DNA of 63,988 nucleotides, the filler included, from Rozella allomycis CSF55 (lineage: Eukaryota), in NCBI GenBank assembly GCA_000442015.1. It is 18 parts of 18 records of this genome, joined end to end, with 100 filler letters (N's around TTAATTAATTAA, not from the genome) between each part and the next. Parts side by side here need not be neighbours in the genome. Positions count along the whole stretch, not along the records: positions 48,530 to 50,867 come from KE561239.1; 17 more parts are not named here. The stretch is one strand, 5' to 3'. The translations under genes and the position numbers were made by a program. This document shows positions 12,968-51,635 of this stretch, in pieces (the first letter of the stretch is position 1; each line of letters opens with the position of its first letter). The notes beneath the pieces are model-generated. The model was not told the origin of the DNA. It saw only the letters and a program-made list of their open reading frames with translations, and ran no database searches.

Positions 12968-14287
12968 TTATTTGGAAGAGTTGCTTGAGAAATACCTATC
13001 GTAAATCTCATATTTGAATATGAATATGACGAACCCAAATGTTGACATGTATGCCGTACCGGATATCAATGCATGGCTATCACGAGATTCGTAAAGCAAT
13101 CCTCCGATAAATGAGCCTGCAACTGCAGACACTCCTCCATATACTGCCGCAAAAAACCCTTGCGCAGTCGCCTCTAATCCTCTAGGTGCAGCGGCGTGAG
13201 CTAAATGAACTCCAGTGGATTGCATTAAACCAGAACCGATTCCTTTGAATATTTCGATAAAAAATACCAAGTAACCATAATTTTCACTCCTTGGCAAGAA
13301 ATATAGAGCCCAAACACGGATAACCATCATTAATTGAGAAACTATTAACATTCTCGCTGGTCCAAGTTTCGCTAGTATCTTTTTCGCGAAAAAGAACAGA
13401 ACTATTTCAGCAAAGCACATTCCCCATGAAGTATGACCATATGTGCTCTTCTTCATTATTCTTTGTTTTGGATCATCTAAATAATTAACCAAGTAATTTT
13501 GAAGAGTGTGCCTACTCACTCCTTGCACAAATACCAAGAAAAGAAAAATAATAAAGGAGGGTTTTTTCAAAAGCGCCAAAACATTATTCTGTTTTGGTTT
13601 TAAAGGAGCTACCTCTGAAGTAGGAGGGGTTGAAGCTGGAATATTCTTCTCGTTGTCACCTTTTGTTTTCTTTTCAATTGTAGAGGGTAAAAGTAGTAAA
13701 GATGGTATGACGGCAGTAAAAGATGTTGCGAGAACCACCAATAGAATACTTTGAATTCCTTGTCTTTCTAAAATTTCACCTACTGCTGCAGTAGTAGAGC
13801 AATAAGCTAAAGTGCCAAATAATCTTTGTCTTCCGTAGAGAGATTTATCACCGTGCTCACTTGATGTGAGTATATCAATGGCAGTGACATCCAACAGGGG
13901 CATTATGCCGGAAATGAAGAAACCATAGAGTGCTGTAGCAAGAAATACTAATGGGAGAAAAACATTATCTTTGTGCGTGGAGTATGATTGAAAAAATCTG
14001 AATGCTTGAAAAATGAGTGCAGAACCGGCGACGCAAATTACGATTAAGAATTTAGGTCGTCTTGTCTTGTCAGAGAGCCATGTCCATATAGGTGAAGCAA
14101 AAGAGAGGACAACAGATAAAAGAACGACATTCCATTTTAGGTCTGATTTTGATAATTTTAAGCTTTGTTCAAAAAATTTGTTTCTGTAGGTGTAGCATGT
14201 GTAATAAGCAATAGAGACAAAGAACATTATTATCTTTATATTAATAAAGTTCTTTGCATAAAAGTCTTTAAAGTCTCGTTTTGTCAT
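12968..14287 (-). CDS. Major facilitator superfamily transporter (MFSD6-like)
   Basis: 439 aa intronless, about 12 TM helices, WLSDKTRRPK loop, YGRQRLFG motif. Confidence 0.88.
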   Translation of the reverse strand: MTKRDFKDFYAKNFINIKIIMFFVSIAYYTCYTYRNKFFEQSLKLSKSDLKWNVVLLSVVLSFASPIWTWLSDKTRRPKFLIVICVAGSALIFQAFRFFQSYSTHKDNVFLPLVFLATALYGFFISGIMPLLDVTAIDILTSSEHGDKSLYGRQRLFGTLAYCSTTAAVGEILERQGIQSILLVVLATSFTAVIPSLLLLPSTIEKKTKGDNEKNIPASTPPTSEVAPLKPKQNNVLALLKKPSFIIFLFLVFVQGVSRHTLQNYLVNYLDDPKQRIMKKSTYGHTSWGMCFAEIVLFFFAKKILAKLGPARMLIVSQLMMVIRVWALYFLPRSENYGYLVFFIEIFKGIGSGLMQSTGVHLAHAAAPRGLEATAQGFFAAVYGGVSAVAGSFIGGLLYESRDSHALISGTAYMSTFGFVIFIFKYEIYDRYFSSNSSK

Positions 14288-24340: not shown

Positions 24341-25294
24341 ATGTTTTCGTATATTTCACCGTTAATGAAATTTAATAAAGAAATTTCTTATCAAGAATCT
24401 GATAACGGAATGGAAACCCCCATCGCCCCCGAGAAATTAATGCCAAAAAAGGTTTCCTTCCTGAACACTTCCTTCATCAAATATTTTGTCAAAGGTTCTA
24501 GTCCAAAAGAATTACATAATACAACTGTACTTTGGGAATCGAAGCTTGTGTCGCCAAAATGTATCGAATCGGGGCTTTGGAGGGGACAAACCGTTATTCT
24601 TCAATCATTGGAACTATCAGGGCAAATTATAACTGGAGTAATTAGAGTTGAGAATAGGTCCTTTGAAAAGGATATCTGTGTTTTTTATTCATTGGACAAG
24701 TGGATGTCGAAGACTTCTATCAGCGGAATATATTTATCTTCGCCTACACCTAAATATGACTATTTTAAATTTACAATGGACCTAACACATGACTTGAAAG
24801 GAAGGCGAGAGGTAGGCCATGTCCATTTCTGCATTCGATATGTTGTTTCTGATAATGAATTTTGGGACAATAATTCAGGTTCAAATTACATAGTCAGTCT
24901 TACTCCTTCTGTAATGGACCTTTTTGAAGAACCACTGAAACAAGAGTCATCTAGAATCCCTGTTCCAGTTCTGAAACGTATAGAAAATAGAAAACCCATC
25001 AATACTAAAACATTTGATAAAAAATCTGAATTTATAGGCACTGAAAGTACTCTGAGTCCTATTTCCAATTCCAATAATATGCGGCCAAGCATTGAATCTT
25101 TAATGTCAAAAGACTTTTTAAATATGGGTATTACATTACTAGAAGCCATGAATGTTAATCAGAATCTTGAAAATAAGAGAAAAAAAGCATCGCATAACGG
25201 TCTGACCTATGGGTATTCCCCATCCACGTCCCCGGATAGATATCCATATTCTCGATATAGTTATGGTACATCCCCGCCGCTATCATCATGGTAA
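24341..25294 (+). CDS. Glycogen-targeting PP1 regulatory subunit (CBM21)
   Basis: RVxF-type KKVSF; CBM21 GVIRVENRSFEK..YSLDKW and FCIRY..EFWDNNSGSNY. Confidence 0.9.
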   Translation: MFSYISPLMKFNKEISYQESDNGMETPIAPEKLMPKKVSFLNTSFIKYFVKGSSPKELHNTTVLWESKLVSPKCIESGLWRGQTVILQSLELSGQIITGVIRVENRSFEKDICVFYSLDKWMSKTSISGIYLSSPTPKYDYFKFTMDLTHDLKGRREVGHVHFCIRYVVSDNEFWDNNSGSNYIVSLTPSVMDLFEEPLKQESSRIPVPVLKRIENRKPINTKTFDKKSEFIGTESTLSPISNSNNMRPSIESLMSKDFLNMGITLLEAMNVNQNLENKRKKASHNGLTYGYSPSTSPDRYPYSRYSYGTSPPLSSW

Positions 25295-36121: not shown

Positions 36122-38972
36122 TTAGTTTATTTCCTTGTTGCTGTAATGAAAGTTGTAATCTAATCTACATACAAGATTGACTATAAACAATAAACAAATA
36201 AAATTACTCATGTGATGTTCATAATCAGCCGCCGCAAAATAATTTAAAGATTCAACCAACTTTTTAGCTTCCAATGTAAAATTCTGATCTAATTGCGATA
36301 ACTGTAGATTGAATTCATTTAGATTGATTTGATTGCTTGTCATTTGAAAAACAGAGCTACAAAACAAATGACACAAATTAATCATCTTTTCAAATATCAA
36401 TAATAACTTTTCATTTGATAGCATGCATTCTTTTAAACAAGTATCTAAAAAGTCTGAATGAATTTTTAATATTTCATCAACTAGTTTAGCTGATTCTAAT
36501 TTATTTATAAAATAGTTCCAATTTGGTTCAATCACTTCAAAATATGAATAGTATTGAATGTTTTCTATAAAATTTAACATTTTCTGTCTAATTGAATCTC
36601 CAAGTGGAATTGAATATGGTTTCAACTCTGAAAATGTTTCACTCAACAATCTTTCAATGTGTTTACAATTAAATAAATGTCTGAATATTATTTGATATTT
36701 TGTTAACACTTTCTTTGATACAATCAACGACACTGGAAACTCTACTTGGTAATCCAAAATAAATGATTCAAAGCCATTCAATTCATTTCTCATTCTCTCA
36801 ATCATCCCATTCTCATTCACACTAATAATTCTCTTCAATTGCTCATAAAGACTCATTATAGAAAAATCACATTTAACACACTCATGATTCTCATTAAACG
36901 CACTCGTCCCACTCTTCAAACTCAACTCCAACAACGACTGCAATTTAGTCATCGACATTTCTCTATTCTTCTTGGCCAACTCATCACTAGATATATCCAT
37001 AAAATGAGTCAGAAAATCACCTCGCTCCAACAAAAAGAATTGCTTCAATGATAAAATATGACTCTTCAATTTCTTTTCTTTTAAAAAATTCACCAAAGAT
37101 TCATTCGCTTCAATATTCATTTCTGAAATTTTATTTCTATTTTTAGATTCCAATTTGTGAAATTTACTTGTTGAAATCTTGAAATTTCATCTTTTTAAAA
37201 TTCTTCTTAAATTCCTTCATCACATTCACACACTTGCCACCCTGCAATATTTCTTTTTGATATTTCTCTAAAAACGTCGGTGTTCTATCATTCACAAACA
37301 CAAATCTACTAGTCCAAAACCCATCATTAAAATCTTCCTTCAAATCCTCCTTTGAATACTCTGGCTGCTCCTTTATCATAAACTCTTCATACGGATCTCT
37401 AATCTCCCCCTTGCTCATCCACACNTTTTAAATCTTCCTTTGAATACTCTGGCTGCTCCTTGATCATAAACTCTTCATACGGATCTCTAATCTCCCCCTT
37501 GCTCATCCACACAAATATCATCTCATAATACGGCTCACTCGTCACCCTCAGTATATTACAATACATCTCTTTAATCTTCTCATCCCCAGAATAACAAATA
37601 TACGTATCATATATCAACGACAACAGTGATCCTCCCTTGCAATTACTCTTCTCTATAGACATCGCCAACGAATAGATCCCCTTCATCTTACTCTGCATCG
37701 GCTGCACATAAAACCAAAATCTTTGCAACGTCAACTCATTCCTATTAAATTGATACTCCAGCTGAGCTATCAACGTCAAATAATCCTTTCCACTCCATAA
37801 AACACCCTTACTTGCAGAATCTCTTTCACACAATGACAAAACGCATGCTGAACAAACCCATACTCAAACTTGGCANATCTATCAAACACCCTTACTTGCA
37901 GAATCTCTCTCACACAATGACAAAACGCATGCTGAACAAACCCATACTCAAACTTGGCATGCTCATCACAGAATCTCTTTAAAAATAAATACCACTCACA
38001 CATACACAACATCCTTTCAACCATCTGAAACAACGTTCCATCCAACCCATTGTCAACCTCAAACACTATCCCTTCCCCCTCCCGCTTGAACTTTACATAG
38101 TTCCCTTCAATTCCAATCAACACATACAACAAATCTTCCATTATCAAATACTCTTGAACAACAAACGAATGTCTAGCCAAACTCTCGTCATTCTCTATCA
38201 CACTCTCCTCACTGCTCAGAAACGTCATCGAATTAGAAAATCTGATCGTCGCCTCTGTCCTCTTCGTCTTACCAGTCATCGTTTCTCTTAACCCACACAC
38301 ACATTTCCTTACCTGCTCCAATTCCATTCGCAAGGCCATCCCTTCCATTCGGCGTCTTGGGCGCCAGAGAACTCTTCATACTCATCAACTGCGCAGCAAT
38401 CTATCCACACACCATCATCCCCTTACCTTGGCAGCCCTCTGCTCCTTGACCAAATCACCCTCACTCTTCACNCATACTCATCAACTGTGCAGCAATCTAT
38501 CCACACCCCACCAAACGTTTACCTTGGCAGCCCTCTGCTCCTTGACCAAATCACCCTCACTCTTCACAAACTCACTCTTCACACCCTCAACCTCCGCCGC
38601 CTCCCGCACCCTTAACAGTCTCCTCAACCCCTCATCCTCCCGCATCTTCTTCATCAATATCAACAACGCATCAACCTCCTTGATCCTACATCACACCACC
38701 CATCAACCCATACTGCTGCCCCTTCAGTCGCTCATATTTCCCCAAAAATTCATCACTGTTCGGACACTTTTTAGAAAGCTCCTGCGCTATCGTAAACGAC
38801 GTCACCTGTGTGAATAACTTTCAGAGCTTACTTTGTTGATTTGGAATGACTGCGGGCGAGATAGTCGATCAACACATTCGCTGGCATTTTTAGGCGGTAT
38901 TGAGAGGTCGGAAAATAACTGAGATACTAGATGTGGAATCGTAAAGGAACTCATGTGGCTTGGATCTGGCAT
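36122..38972 (-). CDS. TUBGCP2: Gamma-tubulin complex component 2 (GCP2/Spc97), multi-exon
   Basis: MSSFTIPHLVSQL..EFLGKYERLK, QEYLIMEDLLYVLIGIEG, LTLQRFWFYVQP, IRDPYEEFMI, LKQFFLLERGDFL, RLDYN; three single-N haplotype duplications. Confidence 0.93.
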
Positions 38973-40290: not shown

Positions 40291-40390
40291 NNNNNNNNNN
40301 NNNNNNNNNNNNNNNNNNNNNNNNNNNNNNNNNNTTAATTAATTAANNNNNNNNNNNNNNNNNNNNNNNNNNNNNNNNNNNNNNNNNNNN

Positions 40391-42246
40391 CTCCATGGGA
40401 ACGAAACCTTCTAGCATCTTCCTCTAACTCTCCCTCCTCTAAGAACGCGACATTCTTTCTTGGAATAAACTTCATTAATCTGGACACATGATATTCACTT
40501 TCCTTCCCAAATTCATTTATCACTAAATAAACATTCTTCTCTAATTTCTTTATTATCCTATACGGGCCATCATATCTTGGTTTCTTCTTATCCCAAATAT
40601 GCCCTTTTCTAATCTTAGAATTTAGCACTAAAACGAACGATCCAACTTCAAACTGGGGTACAATTGAGGACGATCTCGACTCTCTGTTACTCTTAAATCT
40701 AATTCCATTAACATTTTCAATTTCTGCTTTTCTTAATTCAACATTTCCTTCAAGTATTTCATCATCCTTATTAATTATAGGTAATCTTGCTTCAACTCCA
40801 AATAACAAATAATGGGGCGATTTTCCTGTTCTGCTATGTACTCTAGCACGATAACCTTGCAAAATACTCAATAAATTCTCATCCCATCTTTCAAATTTCT
40901 TACTTTCTACACTCTTAGTAATTCCATATCGACAAGTTCTGTTCCAACCTTCAACAAAACCTACCCATTCTGGTTGATATGCTGGAATAAATTCAACTTT
41001 AATTCCCATTTTCTCACATGTTTCCCGAAAGTACGAACTAGTAAATCCTTTATCACAATCCGATATTATCTTCCCAGGAACTCCAAATAAAGAACATAAT
41101 TCTTTTAAGCAAGTTATAGCTGTTATAGCCGTCGTATCACTAACTGCCTTAGCAAAAGGGTAACCAGATAAAACTTCAACAAAGTTCAAAACATAACGAT
41201 TTCCATTTTCACTCACCGGAAAGGGACCCAAATAATCGAACTGCCAAACATGAAATAATCCTGAGATAGATGATCTTCCGTCGAACGAATACTGGGGCTT
41301 CACCATCAAAAATTTTTGACATTGCAAGCATGAAAAGACGAATTGCTTCACTTCAGAATATAGATGAGGACGCCAACACCTCACTTTAATCCAACTCCAA
41401 ATCGTTTGAAAAGAGAAGTGACCCAAATTATCATGCAAGTTTCTCAGCAATAATTCTAATTCTTCCTTGTTCATCAAAACTCTCAAAAGGACCTTAGATT
41501 TTCTATATAATAAACCTTCAATTAATACAAATCTCTTAATATTTCTTCTAAATTTTCTTGACAAACCAACATGCGAGTTACACTCTCCCCCCTCTAAAAA
41601 CTTCTTGTACTCAACCAACATATTCCCCCCAATAAATTCATCATTTATTGCTTCTCCTACCAACACTTCTTCGATGTCATTTCTTCTCACAGGGCGCGAC
41701 AAGAAATCAGCAACAACGTTCAATTTTCCAGCTCTATGCTTTATTTCACAATCAAATTCTGATAATAAATTGATCCATCTAATAACTCTTCCACTTGGTT
41801 CCTTCATTCGAAATAAAGCTGAAATCGCCGAATTATCAGTAAACACTGTAAAATGTCTTCCAAGAAGATAACAACGAAAATGTTTAATTGACGCAATCAC
41901 AGCCAAACCTTCTCTCTCGAAGTTAGCATAATTTCTCTCAGCGGAAGTCAACCTTCTTGAATAATATGCGACGGGTCTCAACACTCCTTCTTGATCCATC
42001 TGCTCAAGAACTGATCCCAGGGCAACTCCCGAAGCATCAGTTGACAATACAAACTCTCCAGAATCATCAGGCTGTTTCAGAATCGGCGCAGTCGTCAATA
42101 AATTCTTAATTTCTTCAAAAGCACTTTCACAATCTTTAGTCCAAATAAATTCAATTCCATCTTTTAACAATAATTGCAAGGGCTCAACGACGTCAGTAAA
42201 ATGAGAAATAAATCTTCTAAAATACGAACCCAAACAAACAAAAGAT
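40391..42246 (-). mobile_element. Ty3/Gypsy LTR retrotransposon pol fragment (RT end, RNase H, integrase), open frame
   Basis: YFRRFI, STDAS..LGSVLEQ..PVAYYSRRL..ERNY..ERE, TDN, NVVADFLSR; HHCC LHDNLGH..CLQCQ; FDYLGPFP, SD, VEGWN; GPY module. Confidence 0.96.
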
Positions 42247-42346: not shown

Positions 42347-43563
42347 ACAAGCATGGACATTATTACATAGTTTGTGCTGCAATGATTGCATTGGAAGATG
42401 CCAACACCTTTCAATGGATTTTTCATAATCTTATGGAGTGTTGCCCTACGTTTTCTTTGTCCACGACAGTCGTCTTCACTGACAATGACGCAGCTATGAC
42501 TTTGGCATTTGAAAGTTTTCCGTTCGTAGCGCATTATCTAAATTTGTTTCACTTTATTCAATGTCTTGATCGTAACTTACGGTTTAAAATGCGTAGTTAT
42601 CACACATTTAAGACGAGGATATGTAAGTTAGTGAAGTCAGAGGATTCGTCCATTGTTACATTAGAACTCGATAAATTGAAACGGGAACACGCGATTACAA
42701 CTGCCGGTCGCCAATATATAGACACATACGTTAAACCAATACTACCTAAAGTGTGTGTTAAAGACAGATGTCAGTACTTTGATTTAGGTCAGTCCGGTAC
42801 AAAAGCGTGTGAAGCATTTAATAGAGTGGTCAAAAGTTATGGAGCTAACTTTAATTCACCTGCTTTGTCCATAATTCAAATTCTCGATTACATATTTGAA
42901 ACTTATACTTATAAAAATCAGTGCCTTGTTGCGAAAACTCAATCATTAACAAAAACATGCGATCTAAGTCCAATGGAAAAATCTCTCAAATTAACGTTAG
43001 GAGTATATGCTGAAACAAAGTTAATTAAACAAATGCGTAAATCTATTAGCAACACGTTAACTACTTTAACTGACAACTGCTCTTTTGCGATAGTAGACTG
43101 CACAGGGATTGCTTTTACCGTCCAATTTGATGATAATGCATCCGCGTTCAAGTGTTCTTGTGGCTATTTCCAGCGCAAAGGAATACCGTGTTCCCATATG
43201 ATATCAGTTAAACAAAAATTGGGCAAGCCTGTTACGTACACTGATTGCATTCAACGTTGGCATATAGGAGGCGAGCCGAGTACATCCACGTCCCACGAGG
43301 GGCCGACCACCACCACAACGCATCGAACACACACAAATATTCGCCATTATCGCCTACAATTGCAGTCTTTGCATAAACTGATCTATAACAACACCTACAA
43401 CGATCTTGATGCGATTAAAGCCGCTACCGAAGGTTATCGTACTACATTCACCTCTATTTTTCCAGGTACACCTATTAATGTCCACAATGTATCAACGGAT
43501 CCGACTCTTCGAAAGGACAAAGTGAGACGACTTCGCAAACATTTAACAAGAAAGAAAAAATAA
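42347..43563 (+). mobile_element. MULE/FAR1-like transposase with SWIM zinc finger (5' truncated)
   Basis: VFTDNDAAM..AF..F...H.L..FH, CEAFN, SWIM CSCGYFQRKGIPCSH. Confidence 0.88.
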
Positions 43564-48529: not shown

Positions 48530-48899
48530 ATTTCATCACTAAAGATAATTAAAACCAAATTGTCTCCAGCATTTAATACAGAAAGTGGCTTTCTATCCAA
48601 GTTGGCAGATTGGACAGTCACACTATCCAGCGAAACGAGTATCACACCTTTTTTAGTGATACACACACAGTTCCTTTCATTTACGGGTACAACTTTTAGA
48701 AAAACAGTGTTGGGCGACACGTCGAATGAATTTATAATACGCGCTTCAGAAATCTACCGTTTATACTCAAAGTTAGTGTTACACTGTATCTGTATACTCC
48801 GCGGCCGTCAATAGCGACGAGAACAGAGTTTTCGCTTAGATCTTGGGTTATCGAACATTTATCTTGGAAATTGTGAGCTGTAATCTTTTCTTGAAACAT
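48530..48899 (-). CDS. Possible Utp8/NOL11-like beta-propeller N-terminus (3' truncated)
   Basis: VLVAIDGRGVYRYS|ISEARIINSFDVSPNTVF across a 29-nt intron resembles Utp8/NOL11 N-termini. Confidence 0.45.
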
Positions 48900-49351
48900 T
48901 GAAAAAAATATTCGGCTCAAGCCACAGGAGAAGGATTTTGGAACTCGAGGACGGGAATCTTAAGAATAATAGAAATTGACTATAGAACTTGGAATTCATG
49001 AAATTATTAATTTGTTGCAGTGTAGTGGTCGAGTAAGAGGTAGATATCAAAGTCACATTGAAATGGAAGGAACTTGTGATTTTTGAATCGCACATTTATT
49101 AATTTACCACGTAAATTTTTAATGCGAATGGTATTGAATGATAAAACTATCTTATTTTTGAATCAGACCCAAGTTTTGATCATTTGATGTTTGGCGTTAA
49201 ATATTAGAGTGGCATATGCTATTTATGCAGACTCGCAATTGCTATTATTTGCAACTGAACATTTGCAACATTAGCACTTTTGTTTCGTGATTTCAGGCTT
49301 CTCAAGCGGCTTGGTTAAAGCAAAGGAATTTATATCGGTGGCTTGTCACAA

Positions 49352-50852
49352 ATGGAAAAACGTGTGTGGTGCTTCATTTTCTTGTTTATTATACAAGTGA
49401 AATGCATCCAAGATGATTGGACTGTTATTGATTCTTTATTTGACCAGTATGCGTTGGCAGAGGATGCTGTGAAGAACGTGAAAGCCGGGGGAAACCATTT
49501 GCTTCATTCTAAAGACCGGGTTGAAGAGGATTTTGATTTTATTGATCTTGAAGAGTTTCCTGGTGGATATGATTTGCGGGATCTCGGGTCTGAGAGTGAG
49601 AAGGAGAGGTTTGAGGATGTCGGCTTTGAAGATGTTCCAGTTCCTGTTGTGAAGGATTCCAAAGCTGATGGTGAAGAGCTTGAGGAAATTGATCTTGAAG
49701 ATCACGTTGAATATGATTTCAGAGATTTAAATCCTGAAAGTGAAAGATTTGAAGAAATCCATGTTGACGCCCCTGTTGTTGATGGAAAACAAGATCAAGC
49801 AGAATTCACAGTGATCGATGAAACTGATGATGAATCTGATGCGATACTAATAAACCGTGAAACCGCAAAAGAAGAAGATTTGGATCTCGCAAGCTACGTT
49901 GTTATAGACAAGGACGAATATGACGATATAATTGAAGAATATGATGACGTTATAGCAGATGAAGGTCTTGAAGGGAATGAAAATTCTATTCCTTCACGAT
50001 TGCAAGCCAAAGTTCTGATGATTATTGATCATATAATGAATTTCTTTTCTAGATATGCTGATATGNATCACAGTGATCGATGAAACTGATGATGAATCTG
50101 ATGAGATACTAATAAACCGTGAAATCCCAAAGGAAGAAGATTTGGATCTCTCAAGCTACGTTGTTATAGACAAGGACGAATATGACGATATAATTGAAGA
50201 ATATGATGACGTTATAGCAGATGAAGGTCTTGAAGGTAATGAAAATTCTATTCCTTCACGATTGCAAGCCAAAGTTTTGATGATTATTGATCATATAATG
50301 AATTTCTTTTCTAGATATGCTGATATGTTCGATTATGTGAAAGTGTCAAAAGATATTCCAGAGGAAGTTAATGGAGTTGAACCAATTAGTGGTGTTTTAG
50401 AAAAATCGAAAGAGTTTGCCAGAGGAATAAAGCAGAAAGTTGTTGGAAGTGGAAGATATCTTGTTGACAAGGTGAAAGATAAGTTGAAAGAGCAAAAATC
50501 ATTCAAGAAACTGTACAAGATATATGGCTATGTTGAAAAGTATAAGAATACTGTCAAGACAGCAAAGATGTTGGTTGAAAGTGTTAAGGCTTCAGTGAAG
50601 GATCCTAATGTGTGGTTGGCTGCTTCTTCATCGTTGGTTGATATTAGATTTGGGTTCTTTCATTCTCTTGTTTATCTTTTTAAAGTGAAGGTGGTTCCAT
50701 ACCTTAAAGAACAACTTGAAATGCAGCCTGATAATGAAATGGTTAAATCTCAATTGAATTTGATTGATTTATTTGAACAGTATGGAACATCTAGCATTCA
50801 TGTTCTCTTTGGATTGAATGTTTTAGCCAGAGCTTTTATCTATGGAAACTAA
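49352..50852 (+). CDS. Predicted secreted acidic repeat protein with multiple LIR/AIM- and SIM-like motifs (about 410 aa after collapsing the duplication at N 50066)
   Basis: MEKRVWCFIFLFIIQVKC signal-like N-terminus; Asp/Glu-rich repeats; basic helical C-terminal domain; no introns needed. Confidence 0.75.
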
Positions 50853-51635
50853 ATAAACTCTTTAGAANNNNNNNNNNNNNNNNNNNNNNNNNNNNNNNNN
50901 NNNNNNNNNNNTTAATTAATTAANNNNNNNNNNNNNNNNNNNNNNNNNNNNNNNNNNNNNNNNNNNNACTCTGAATTGAATGCGGTTCAGTAGTTTTAAC
51001 ACTAACATTGTTCCTACTTTTTATTACTTACAAGTTACAAGCAACATTATAACATATGTATCATTCGCCTGGCCAAAAGAGACTTCCCCAACAGCGAAGT
51101 GTGAGAAACCACGATAAATTAAAGATATTCACTAACAGTCTCTTTTTTTCTAAATTTTACAGTTGTTCCTTTTTTGCCAGCTAATAAATTTCTACCAAGC
51201 TTCCCATTGAATCTTTCTTTCATTTATTAGCTGCTCTATTTGTTGATTTGCGATAATATCATTTTTTAAGTTGTTTGTGAAAATCTCGAGTAAAGATTTC
51301 TTAATTTCTTTTGGCAGGCTTGTCCTTTTTACCATATCTAATTTTTATGATAAAGCTTTAGGAAGGAAATCGGGATTCTCATGGCTCATTCCTTCACGTT
51401 GGCTGATTTGAAAGATTATTATAAATAATTTCGTCAACTCAAGCAAGTTGATTCATTATGCTAACAAACGACTTGACAAACCATGAGATTTTTAGATGTC
51501 TTTTGTGAAGTGAATCGTGATACAGTTTAAGTTATGGTACAAAGCGGATTTTGGCGAGGAAGCCAAAATCATATTTCTGAACCTTAAAAAAATATTACGA
51601 AATAGACTATCTTAAATATCCCTGTCACTTGTCAA

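What the first reader, a model, noticed from the sequence alone, without database searches (positions are those of the whole stretch)
49352..50852. Secreted protein with about 12 tandem acidic LIR/AIM-like motifs: candidate host-autophagy (Atg8) effector
Seen: an 18-aa signal-like peptide followed almost immediately by DDWTVI, then EEDFDFI, DFIDL, ERFEDV, GFEDV, DFRDL, ERFEEI, AEFTVI, ASYVVI, DEYDDI, EEYDDV and DMFDYV. These sit in a low-complexity acidic region built from a degenerate ~45-aa repeat, ahead of a ~170-aa basic helical domain with hydrophobic segments. Known: the Atg8-interacting motif is acidic-[W/F/Y]xx[L/I/V] (p62 DDWTHL), and pathogens target it (Phytophthora PexRD54, Legionella RavZ). 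Several cores (FIDLE, EIDLE, VVID, TVID) also fit SUMO-interacting motifs. Inference: a signal peptide would separate these motifs from the organism's own cytosolic Atg8, so a polyvalent Atg8/UBL-binding effector acting in host cytoplasm is plausible for an endoparasite. Caveat: the LIR consensus is short and common in acidic sequence.
Basis: partly seen in the sequence, partly recalled or inferred. Interest (0 to 1): 0.8.

Follow-up and report, generated by a model that had tools for sequence, protein, structure and literature searches.

The report
Rozella orphan protein with LIR-like array
A gene found only in the fungal endoparasite Rozella allomycis encodes a probably secreted, very acidic, disordered protein with about a dozen motifs of the type that bind the autophagy protein Atg8, but an assembly error inflates the gene in this window and no binding has been tested.

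Summary
The motifs are real and more frequent than chance. In the mature acidic part (220 aa), 11 [WFY]xx[LIV] cores occur against about 4.3 in composition or local-block shuffles (P about 2e-4). Only the i+3 spacing is enriched. Seven cores fit the published xLIR pattern, against 0.75 expected. The N-terminus looks like a cleavable signal peptide, and the C-terminal 174 aa are basic, amphipathic, helical and have no transmembrane-grade segment.

The 49352-50852 "ORF" is not one frame. A single N at 50066 joins two unmerged allelic contig ends, which duplicates about 260 bp and shifts the frame. The true protein is about 412 aa. GenBank O9G_005990 (468 aa) keeps a false 56-aa duplicate. The window is a chain of unlinked short contigs, so gene neighbourhood carries no information.

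No homologue was found outside Rozella allomycis, and no Pfam, PDB or Atlas match. SUMO-interacting-type cores are not enriched. Atg8 binding, secretion and expression could not be tested. The parasite lies in a host-membrane-bounded compartment, so a signal peptide alone does not put the protein in host cytosol.

Verdict: a real lineage-specific candidate host-exposed protein with a linear-motif array. Atg8 is the leading partner candidate, but this is unproven.

The parts
49352..49405 (+). Signal-peptide-like N-terminus (residues 1-18, MEKR + 12-aa h-region + V-K-C)
   Evidence: the 12-aa window VWCFIFLFIIQV has mean KD 2.68, while the best 19-aa window is only 1.37, too short and weak for a membrane anchor. 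V at -3 and C at -1 before IQ fit the recalled (-3,-1) rule; a stop lies 11 codons upstream in frame, so the ATG at 49352 is the first start. SignalP was not run.
49406..50065 (+). Acidic, probably disordered region (residues 19-238, haplotype A) with 11 [WFY]xx[LIV] cores: W23, F61, F63, F87, F92, F123, F133, F152, Y182, Y190, Y197
   Evidence: D+E is 69 of 220 and net charge is -51. The AF2 model of the allele P0003 has pLDDT below 50 and almost no secondary structure over this part (single sequence, so weak evidence).
49568..49702 (+). Copy 1 of the degenerate ~45-aa repeat (residues 73-117)
   Evidence: local alignment with residues 121-159, score 73 against 40.0 +/- 6.8 in shuffles (z 4.9).
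49712..49828 (+). Copy 2 of the degenerate ~45-aa repeat (residues 121-159)
50066..50066 (.). Single-N scaffold join that breaks the reading frame
   Evidence: the two ORFs either side are in different frames.
50067..50327 (+). Artefactual second copy (haplotype B) of 49805-50065
   Evidence: 8 differences in about 261 aligned columns; a contig of run X6 is collinear with the unique upstream DNA (48538-50014) and carries all 7 of the copy-2 variants that fall in its span, so copy 2 is an allele at the same place. P0003, from an independent assembly, has one copy; the deposited model O9G_005990 keeps a 56-aa duplicate.
50328..50852 (+). C-terminal basic amphipathic helical domain (174 aa) plus stop codon; begins with the 12th core, FDYV
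   Evidence: K+R 28, D+E 20; best 19-aa KD is 1.25, below the recalled ~1.6 guide value for a membrane span; hydrophobic periodicity peaks at 104 degrees (z 6.2); five helices, mean pLDDT 49.1.

Best explanation
This is a real, single-copy gene specific to Rozella allomycis (GenBank O9G_005990 / ROZALSC1DRAFT_24698). Its true product is about 412 aa and has three parts:
- a cleavable ER signal peptide of 18 aa;
- a disordered stretch of about 200 aa with net charge about -51, carrying 11-12 acidic [W/F/Y]-x-x-[L/I/V] short linear motifs, partly generated by a ~45-aa repeat;
- a 174-aa lysine-rich amphipathic helical domain with no transmembrane-grade segment.

Most likely mechanism (inferred). 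The protein is exported by the wall-less intracellular plasmodium to the host-parasite interface. The helical C-domain holds it on a membrane or in an oligomer. The motif array acts as a multivalent ligand for a host protein. Among the motif classes tested, only the LIR/AIM class fits, so host Atg8 is the leading partner candidate. The protein would then act as a sponge or tether in the manner of Plasmodium UIS3 or Phytophthora PexRD54.

Shown: the gene model, the architecture, the motif enrichment and its spacing specificity, the lack of relatives, and the allelic polymorphism.
Inferred: secretion, host exposure, function of the motifs, and the identity of the partner.
For: - Gene model. A 412-column alignment of the two window halves with the contiguous allele P0003. 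The first in-frame ATG follows a stop 11 codons upstream. The frame stays open in three haplotypes.
- Signal-like N-terminus.
- Motif array. 11 cores against 4.3 expected (P 2-4e-4), robust to block shuffles. With one repeat copy and one tandem unit removed, 8 against 3.4 (P 0.007) and xLIR 6 against 0.55. Only the i+3 spacing with the aromatic residue first is enriched. [WFY][DE][DE][LIV] occurs 5 times against 0.42 expected.
- Fit to published LIR patterns. xLIR 7 against 0.75 and cLIR 3 against 0.28. Both patterns were checked against iLIR paper passages in PMC5119064.
- Background. In the other 26 ORFs of at least 150 aa in the window, the best 220-aa stretch holds at most 2 xLIR matches, median 0.
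- Acidic residues lie within 3 positions upstream in 10 of the 11 cores. Passages of PMC7615515 say such residues are preferred.
- Residues 59-66, EDFDFIDL, resemble the validated C-terminal AIM peptide of PexRD54...DFDWEIV (passage of PMC4775223).
- The mature protein has no Cys and no N-x-S/T sequon (read). By inference, this suits action in a reducing cytosol.
- The protein is an orphan with fast-changing alleles: 13 non-synonymous to 4 synonymous among the 17 listed variants, pN/pS about 0.8. This matches the abstract of PMC5423893, which describes microsporidian host-exposed proteins as rapidly evolving.
Against: - No binding, localisation or expression data exist.
- SignalP was not run.
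- The LIR consensus is short, and the iLIR authors themselves warn of many false positives (passages of PMC5119064).
- The motifs are not independent, because repeats and a tandem EYDD[IV] unit generated several of them.
- Two allelic changes swap aromatic and aliphatic residues at the first core position: L110F gains a core and F152I loses one. A strict LIR would not tolerate this, so general hydrophobic positions are also compatible.
- DFRDL has Arg at X1, and two cores are preceded by Arg at -1.
- pN/pS near 0.8 fits weak constraint as well as it fits an arms race, and 9 further variants were not shown.
- The parasite sits in a host-membrane-bounded compartment (PMC6317583 passages). No RxLR or RxLx[EQD] host-targeting motif is seen after the signal peptide (read), so there is no known route into host cytosol.
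- Both AF2 models are low-confidence, so disorder and helicity are only suggested.
Confidence: 0.45

Rival explanations
1. A secreted or secretory-pathway acidic matrix protein with no host-cytosolic target, for example a coat on the naked plasmodium, a cyst, resting-spore or discharge-plug component, or a low-affinity Ca2+ buffer. On this reading the Phi-x-x-Phi pattern is a by-product of repeat ancestry or of a propensity to form short strands or helices.
For: - Signal-like N-terminus, extreme acidity (69 D/E in 220 aa) and repeats.
- The compartment topology keeps a secreted protein outside host cytosol.
- Aromatic and aliphatic residues swap between alleles at core positions.
- Constraint is weak.
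Against: - No similarity to any wall, matrix or Ca-binding family.
- The mature protein has no Cys and no N-glycosylation sequon, which is unusual for an extracellular structural protein (inference).
- The enrichment is limited to aromatic-first i+3 spacing. Aliphatic-first [LIVM]xx[LIV] is if anything depleted, 8 against 11.75. Generic amphipathicity does not predict that.
Confidence: 0.3
2. The protein is not exported. The N-terminal hydrophobic stretch is not a signal peptide, and the protein works inside Rozella, for example as the parasite's own Atg8-binding receptor or adaptor, or as an acidic activation-type domain.
For: - The acidic aromatic motifs also resemble acidic activation domains (recalled, not tested).
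- LIR motifs normally act in the same cytosol as Atg8 (PMC7615515).
Against: - The n-h-c layout of the first 18 residues is typical of a cleaved signal: a 12-aa h-region with KD 2.68 and small or neutral residues at -3 and -1.
- No DNA-binding or other domain was found.
Confidence: 0.1
3. A young or decaying orphan ORF under little selection and with no specific function. The motif pattern would be an accident amplified by internal duplication.
For: - No relatives anywhere.
- pN/pS about 0.8 in the acidic part.
Against: - A 412-codon frame stays open in three haplotypes of a genome with about 35% G+C.
- The C-domain differs at only 4 of 174 residues between the window and P0003, against about 15 of 204 in the acidic part.
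- Enrichment survives collapsing the repeats.
Confidence: 0.1

Closest known systems
Phytophthora infestans PexRD54 (RXLR-WY effector with a C-terminal Atg8-interacting motif)
   Same: A protein secreted by a eukaryotic parasite with an acidic aromatic AIM. The validated peptide ends ...DFDWEIV (passage of PMC4775223), and residues 59-66 here read EDFDFIDL.
   Different: PexRD54 has one functional AIM on a folded WY-domain body and an RXLR uptake signal. This protein has 11-12 candidate motifs in a disordered acidic array, no WY fold or Pfam match, no RxLR (read), and no binding data.
Legionella pneumophila RavZ
   Same: A pathogen protein that combines several LIR motifs with a C-terminal membrane-binding module to engage Atg8 on membranes (passages of PMC8634866). 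Here too a motif array is followed by an amphipathic helical domain.
   Different: RavZ is a type IV-secreted bacterial cysteine protease with a catalytic domain. No catalytic domain or homology is seen here.
Plasmodium berghei UIS3
   Same: A protein of an intracellular eukaryotic parasite living in a host-membrane-bounded vacuole. It binds host LC3 and so shields the parasite from autophagy (passages of PMC8634866). This is the closest match to the proposed mode of action.
   Different: UIS3 is a transmembrane protein of the vacuole membrane. This protein has no transmembrane-grade segment and no sequence similarity to it was found.
C53/CDK5RAP3 disordered region with several shuffled AIMs
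   Same: Several Atg8-binding short motifs clustered in one disordered region (passage of PMC7615515).
   Different: C53 is a conserved cytosolic ER-phagy receptor whose motifs are of the IDWD type. The motifs here follow the canonical order, the protein carries a signal peptide, and it has no homologues.
Microsporidian host-exposed, rapidly evolving species-specific proteins
   Same: A related lineage of intracellular parasites. Those proteins are described as rapidly evolving in the abstract of PMC5423893.
   Different: Those proteins were identified by proximity labelling in infected hosts. This one has no experimental support and no sequence relation to them.

Membership tests
LIR/AIM-containing Atg8-binding proteins | Core [W/F/Y]-x-x-[L/I/V], preferably with acidic residues just upstream (cLIR and xLIR patterns) | tested here: met
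   There are 11 cores in residues 19-238, and 10 of them have D/E within 3 positions upstream. Seven match xLIR and three match cLIR. The patterns were checked in PMC5119064. All counts are enriched over shuffles.
LIR/AIM-containing Atg8-binding proteins | Motif lies in an accessible, disordered segment | tested here: inconclusive
   The AF2 single-sequence model has pLDDT below 50 and almost no secondary structure over the acidic part. A single-sequence model is weak evidence, and no disorder or ANCHOR predictor was available.
LIR/AIM-containing Atg8-binding proteins | Motif is exposed to the cytosol that contains Atg8 | not testable with these tools
   The signal-like N-terminus and the host-membrane-bounded compartment (PMC6317583) argue that an extra translocation step would be needed. 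No localisation data exist.
LIR/AIM-containing Atg8-binding proteins | Direct binding to the LIR docking site of an Atg8-family protein, lost on mutation of the aromatic or aliphatic residue | not testable with these tools
SUMO-interacting motif (SIM) proteins | Hydrophobic core of the [VI]-x-[VI]-[VI] / [VI]-[VI]-x-[VIL] type with acidic flank, present more often than composition predicts (patterns recalled, not from a call) | tested here: not met
   The loose pattern gives 3 against 4.3 expected (P 0.81) and the stricter pattern 1 against 1.8 (P 0.82) in residues 19-238. Single matches such as VVID exist but are no more frequent than chance.
Classical secretory proteins (cleaved ER signal peptide) | Positively charged n-region, h-region of 7-15 hydrophobic residues, small or neutral residues at -3 and -1 (rule recalled) | tested here: met
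   MEKR, then VWCFIFLFIIQV (KD 2.68 over 12 aa), then V-K-C|IQ. The best 19-aa window is only 1.37, so a stable anchor is unlikely. This is a heuristic only; SignalP was not available.
FFAT-motif (VAP-binding) proteins | Core of the [DEST][FY]xD[small]x[DEST] type in an acidic tract (pattern recalled) | tested here: not met
   There are 0 strict matches. The loose [FY]xD[aliphatic/small] pattern occurs 6 times, but position 5 is V, I or L, not a small residue.
RXLR / PEXEL host-targeted effectors | RxLR or RxLx[EQD] shortly after the signal peptide (patterns recalled) | tested here: not met
   Read directly from the translation. The Arg residues in the first ~110 mature residues sit in RVEED, RDLGS, RFEDV and RDLNP, and none fits either pattern.

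The most novel reading that the evidence does not exclude
A polyvalent Atg8 trap. The Rozella plasmodium exports a protein whose amphipathic C-domain coats the membrane around the parasite. Its 11-12 tandem LIRs bind many host Atg8 molecules at once. This either blocks xenophagy of the parasite compartment, in the manner of UIS3 but by avidity, or draws host autophagic membranes and cargo to the interface, where the parasite phagocytoses host cytoplasm. It would be the first effector mechanism described for Cryptomycota and the densest LIR array known to me in a pathogen protein. That last comparison rests on recall and on the reviews seen, not on a systematic survey.
Probability: 0.12. Interest if true: 0.8.

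Novelty: new variant of a known kind. Interest (0 to 1): 0.4.

Why it matters
Rozella sits at the base of the fungal/microsporidian radiation. It grows as a naked, phagocytosing cell inside another fungus, and how it holds off host defences is unknown. I found no effector mechanism for it in the papers I searched. No paper held Rozella, Atg8 and LIR together, and neither locus tag appears in any paper. A secreted protein with a statistically solid array of Atg8-type motifs gives a concrete hypothesis that can be tested cheaply with peptide arrays or pull-downs against Allomyces Atg8. There is also a practical point. The public gene model O9G_005990 is wrong by a 56-aa false duplication caused by a single-N join. 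This window holds 23 such single-N joins in all, so other gene models in this assembly may hide the same artefact.

Tried and rejected
- Own-genome searches for paralogues were not possible because no genome is held. tblastn within the window found none; the next best E-values were 3.3 and 9.2.
- Pfam gave 0 families at E <= 1.
- The exhaustive HMMER search with P0002 gave 2 hits at E <= 0.001. One is the allele P0003. The other, P0005, is an 876-aa repeat protein hit in 6 stretches at E 2.7e-4, which I judged spurious.
- Word-based searches gave 2 of 974, 2 of 481 and 1 of 1848 candidates. All hits are Rozella or the window itself.
- ESM Atlas gave no usable hit, either for the whole protein or for the C-domain.
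- The PDB sequence search gave a best E of 0.077, so nothing is credible.
- Both AF2 jobs were low-confidence, with mean pLDDT 37.8 and 49.1. I ran no fold search because matches to such models are meaningless.
- No RNA holder was listed. The one RNA run laid, X11, placed 0 contigs.
- Read laying showed no contig or joint bridging the N. The proof of the artefact is therefore indirect: the collinear X6 contig plus P0003.
- The X6 contig leaves the window sequence after 50014 with 22 unlike letters. This is unexplained.
- A blastp self-comparison printed nothing. The repeat was then shown by Smith-Waterman alignment against shuffles.
- Other motif classes showed no signal: SIM, strict FFAT, clathrin box (1 against 0.41), Yxx[LIVMF] (4 against 2.0, P 0.11), FxDxF and DPF/DPW/NPF.
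- Earlier findings of the scan gave nothing.
- James et al. 2013 (the Rozella genome paper) and Powell et al. 2017 (interface ultrastructure) were not in the library and were not read. They are known only through citations in PMC6690862 and PMC6317583. Supplementary files, such as secretome lists, were not seen and could bear on whether this gene was ever called secreted.

Full report
**What the window is.** The 63,988-base window is not one piece of chromosome. Seventeen 100-base linkers (runs of N around TTAATTAATTAA) join 18 short contigs. The linker core occurs 17 times against 0.06 expected, and the contig map is. The finding lies on a contig of only 2,338 bases, 48530-50867, so the other genes of the window are not its neighbours. 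G+C is 29-40%. The organism is Rozella allomycis CSF55. The protein matches two NCBI records: hypothetical protein ROZALSC1DRAFT_24698 (P0003, 378 aa, partial, 97% identity) and hypothetical protein O9G_005990 (P0006, 468 aa). P0006 sits on a contig of exactly 2,338 bases.

**The coordinates hide an assembly artefact.**
- 49352-50852 is 1,501 bases and is not one frame. The ORF listing returns two ORFs, 49352-50083 (243 aa) and 50055-50852 (265 aa), each containing an X.
- A single N at 50066 is flanked by two near-identical copies of about 260 bases, 49805-50065 and 50067-50327. They differ at 8 positions.
- Three observations show that these are two alleles of one segment and not a tandem duplication.
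  - P0003, from an independent assembly, runs straight through with one copy (alignment A2).
  - A 1,499-base contig of run X6 is collinear with the unique upstream DNA from 48538 to 50014. It carries all 7 of the copy-2 variants that fall in its span.
  - Run X4 shows pairs of variant contigs at the same places elsewhere on the contig, so the source is polymorphic.
- The true product is therefore about 412 aa (412 alignment columns).
- The deposited 468-aa model bridges the N with what must be a false intron, and so repeats 56 residues.
- No laid contig bridged the N itself, so this conclusion is strong but indirect.

**Anatomy of the protein.**
- *N-terminus.* Residues 1-18 are MEKR, then a 12-residue hydrophobic core (mean Kyte-Doolittle 2.68), then V-K-C. 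The best 19-residue window scores only 1.37, which suits a cleaved signal rather than an anchor. A stop lies 11 codons upstream in frame.
- *Acidic region.* Residues 19-238 hold 69 D/E and 18 K/R, for a net charge of -51, and no Cys. A degenerate repeat of about 45 residues aligns residues 73-117 with 121-159 (z 4.9). There is also a tandem EYDD[IV] pair.
- *C-domain.* The last 174 residues are basic (28 K/R against 20 D/E). Hydrophobic periodicity is helical (104 degrees, z 6.2). The best 19-residue hydropathy is 1.25, below the usual guide value for a membrane span, which is recalled.
- *Structure prediction.* AF2 predicts helices in the C-domain and almost no structure in the acidic part. 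Confidence is low in both jobs (mean pLDDT 37.8 and 49.1), so I did not search for similar folds.

**Are the motifs more than chance?** Yes.
- Eleven of the 19 aromatic residues in residues 19-238 have L, I or V at +3. Composition shuffles give 4.3 +/- 1.75 (P 0.0002-0.0004). Shuffles within blocks of 10-30 residues give 3.9-4.2 (P <= 0.0002).
- The control spacings i+1, i+2, i+4, i+5 and i+6 give 2, 5, 2, 6 and 2. The reversed order gives 4, and aliphatic-first gives 8 against 11.75. The signal is therefore specific to aromatic-x-x-aliphatic.
- [WFY][DE][DE][LIV] occurs 5 times against 0.42 expected.
- Seven hexamers fit the xLIR pattern (0.75 expected) and three fit the stricter cLIR pattern (0.28 expected; P 0.002). 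I checked both patterns against the iLIR paper, PMC5119064 (passages).
- Removing one repeat copy and one tandem unit leaves 8 cores against 3.4 (P 0.007) and 6 xLIR against 0.55.
- Among the other 26 ORFs of at least 150 aa in the window, the best 220-residue stretch has at most 2 xLIR matches, median 0.
- SIM-type cores are not enriched (3 against 4.3; 1 against 1.8). Strict FFAT, clathrin-box, YxxPhi and FxDxF/DPF/NPF patterns show nothing either.

**Relatives.** None was found outside Rozella allomycis.
- Pfam gave 0 families.
- The word-indexed searches of 5.8 billion proteins returned only the alleles and the window's own models.
- The exhaustive HMMER search of 1.84 billion representatives returned the allele and one repeat protein that I consider spurious.
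- PDB sequences (best E 0.077) and the ESM Atlas gave nothing.

**Variation between alleles.**
- The acidic part differs more than the C-domain: about 15 of 204 residues plus a 2-residue indel, against 4 of 174.
- Of the 17 X6 variants listed in the coding part, 13 are non-synonymous and 4 synonymous, giving pN/pS about 0.8. Nine further variants were not shown.
- Changes at core positions are I26V, V90I and V200I, which all keep the aliphatic residue. L110F creates a core and F152I removes one.

**How it most likely works.** I commit to the following model. The protein is exported by the wall-less plasmodium. It is held at the host-parasite interface through its amphipathic C-domain. Its acidic array acts as a multivalent ligand for a host protein. 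Of the motif classes I could test, only LIR/AIM fits, so Atg8 is the leading partner candidate.

The absence of Cys and of N-glycosylation sequons in the mature protein suits a protein that works in a cytosol; this is an inference. The closest working analogues are:
- Plasmodium UIS3, which binds host LC3 from the vacuole membrane;
- RavZ, which pairs several LIRs with a membrane-binding module (both from passages of PMC8634866);
- PexRD54, whose validated AIM peptide ends DFDWEIV (PMC4775223 passage), compared with EDFDFIDL here.

**Against this model.**
- Nothing shows secretion, expression or binding.
- The consensus is short and prone to false positives, as the iLIR authors say.
- Several of the motifs arose by duplication.
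- The aromatic position is not strictly kept between alleles.
[quoted passage not shown] A further membrane must therefore be crossed, and no RxLR or PEXEL-like signal is visible (read).

I put the motif-array host-exposed reading at 0.45, and Atg8 as the true partner at roughly 0.12-0.15.

**Rivals.** The alternatives are an acidic matrix, coat or Ca-buffer protein of the secretory pathway (0.3), a parasite-internal role (0.1), and a weakly selected orphan with no specific function (0.1).

**Comparison with what is known, and novelty.** The gene is in GenBank as a hypothetical protein. Neither locus tag occurs in the searched literature, and no paper held Rozella, Atg8 and LIR together. Pathogen proteins that bind Atg8 through LIRs are a known kind. 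A secreted disordered array of a dozen such motifs from a cryptomycete would be a new variant, if it is real. Membership of the LIR class is met at the level of sequence pattern only. Accessibility is inconclusive, and topology and binding could not be tested.

**Score.** Interest is 0.4. The sequence signal is clean and statistically robust, and the hypothesis is testable.

Noticed in passing
window 1-63988: The window is a chain of 18 unlinked contigs (1.1-19 kb) joined by 17 linkers of 100 bases, each N...TTAATTAATTAA...N. Gene order across linkers means nothing.
   Followed up: yes
window, 23 single-N positions (e.g. 5375, 8149, 28868, 37425, 45835, 52344, 58363): Single-N scaffold joins are common in this assembly: 23 in the window. 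The one at 50066 hides an unmerged allelic overlap and a frame shift. The others may distort gene models in the same way.
   Followed up: no
window 49352-50852 vs GenBank O9G_005990 (P0006): The deposited 468-aa model carries a false 56-residue internal duplicate (ILINRE...SRLQAK twice) because an intron was called across the N.
   Followed up: yes
window 49805-50327 and P0003: Three different haplotypes of the duplicated segment exist: copy 1, copy 2, and a mosaic in P0003. That is more than two alleles for what is labelled one strain.
   Followed up: partly
window 50014, run X6: The 1,499-base X6 contig leaves the window sequence after 50014 with 22 unlike letters. It may be a chimeric contig or another junction; this is unexplained.
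   Followed up: no
window 40335-41999 (-): A Ty3/gypsy-type retroelement pol fragment with RT RNase H, integrase zinc-binding and integrase core domains. It fills its own short contig.
   Followed up: no
window 42382-43563 (+): A 393-aa ORF with a SWIM zinc finger (E 6.5e-8). It may be transposase-derived.
   Followed up: no
window 48530-48753 (-): An open frame of about 74 codons runs off the start of the finding's contig on the opposite strand. It may be the end of a neighbouring gene.
   Followed up: no
window 12968-14287 (-), 36122-37120 (-), 24341-25294 (+): Ordinary eukaryotic genes lie on other contigs: an MFS_1-like transporter, the C-terminal part of a gamma-tubulin complex component, and a CBM21 starch-binding-module protein.
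   Followed up: no
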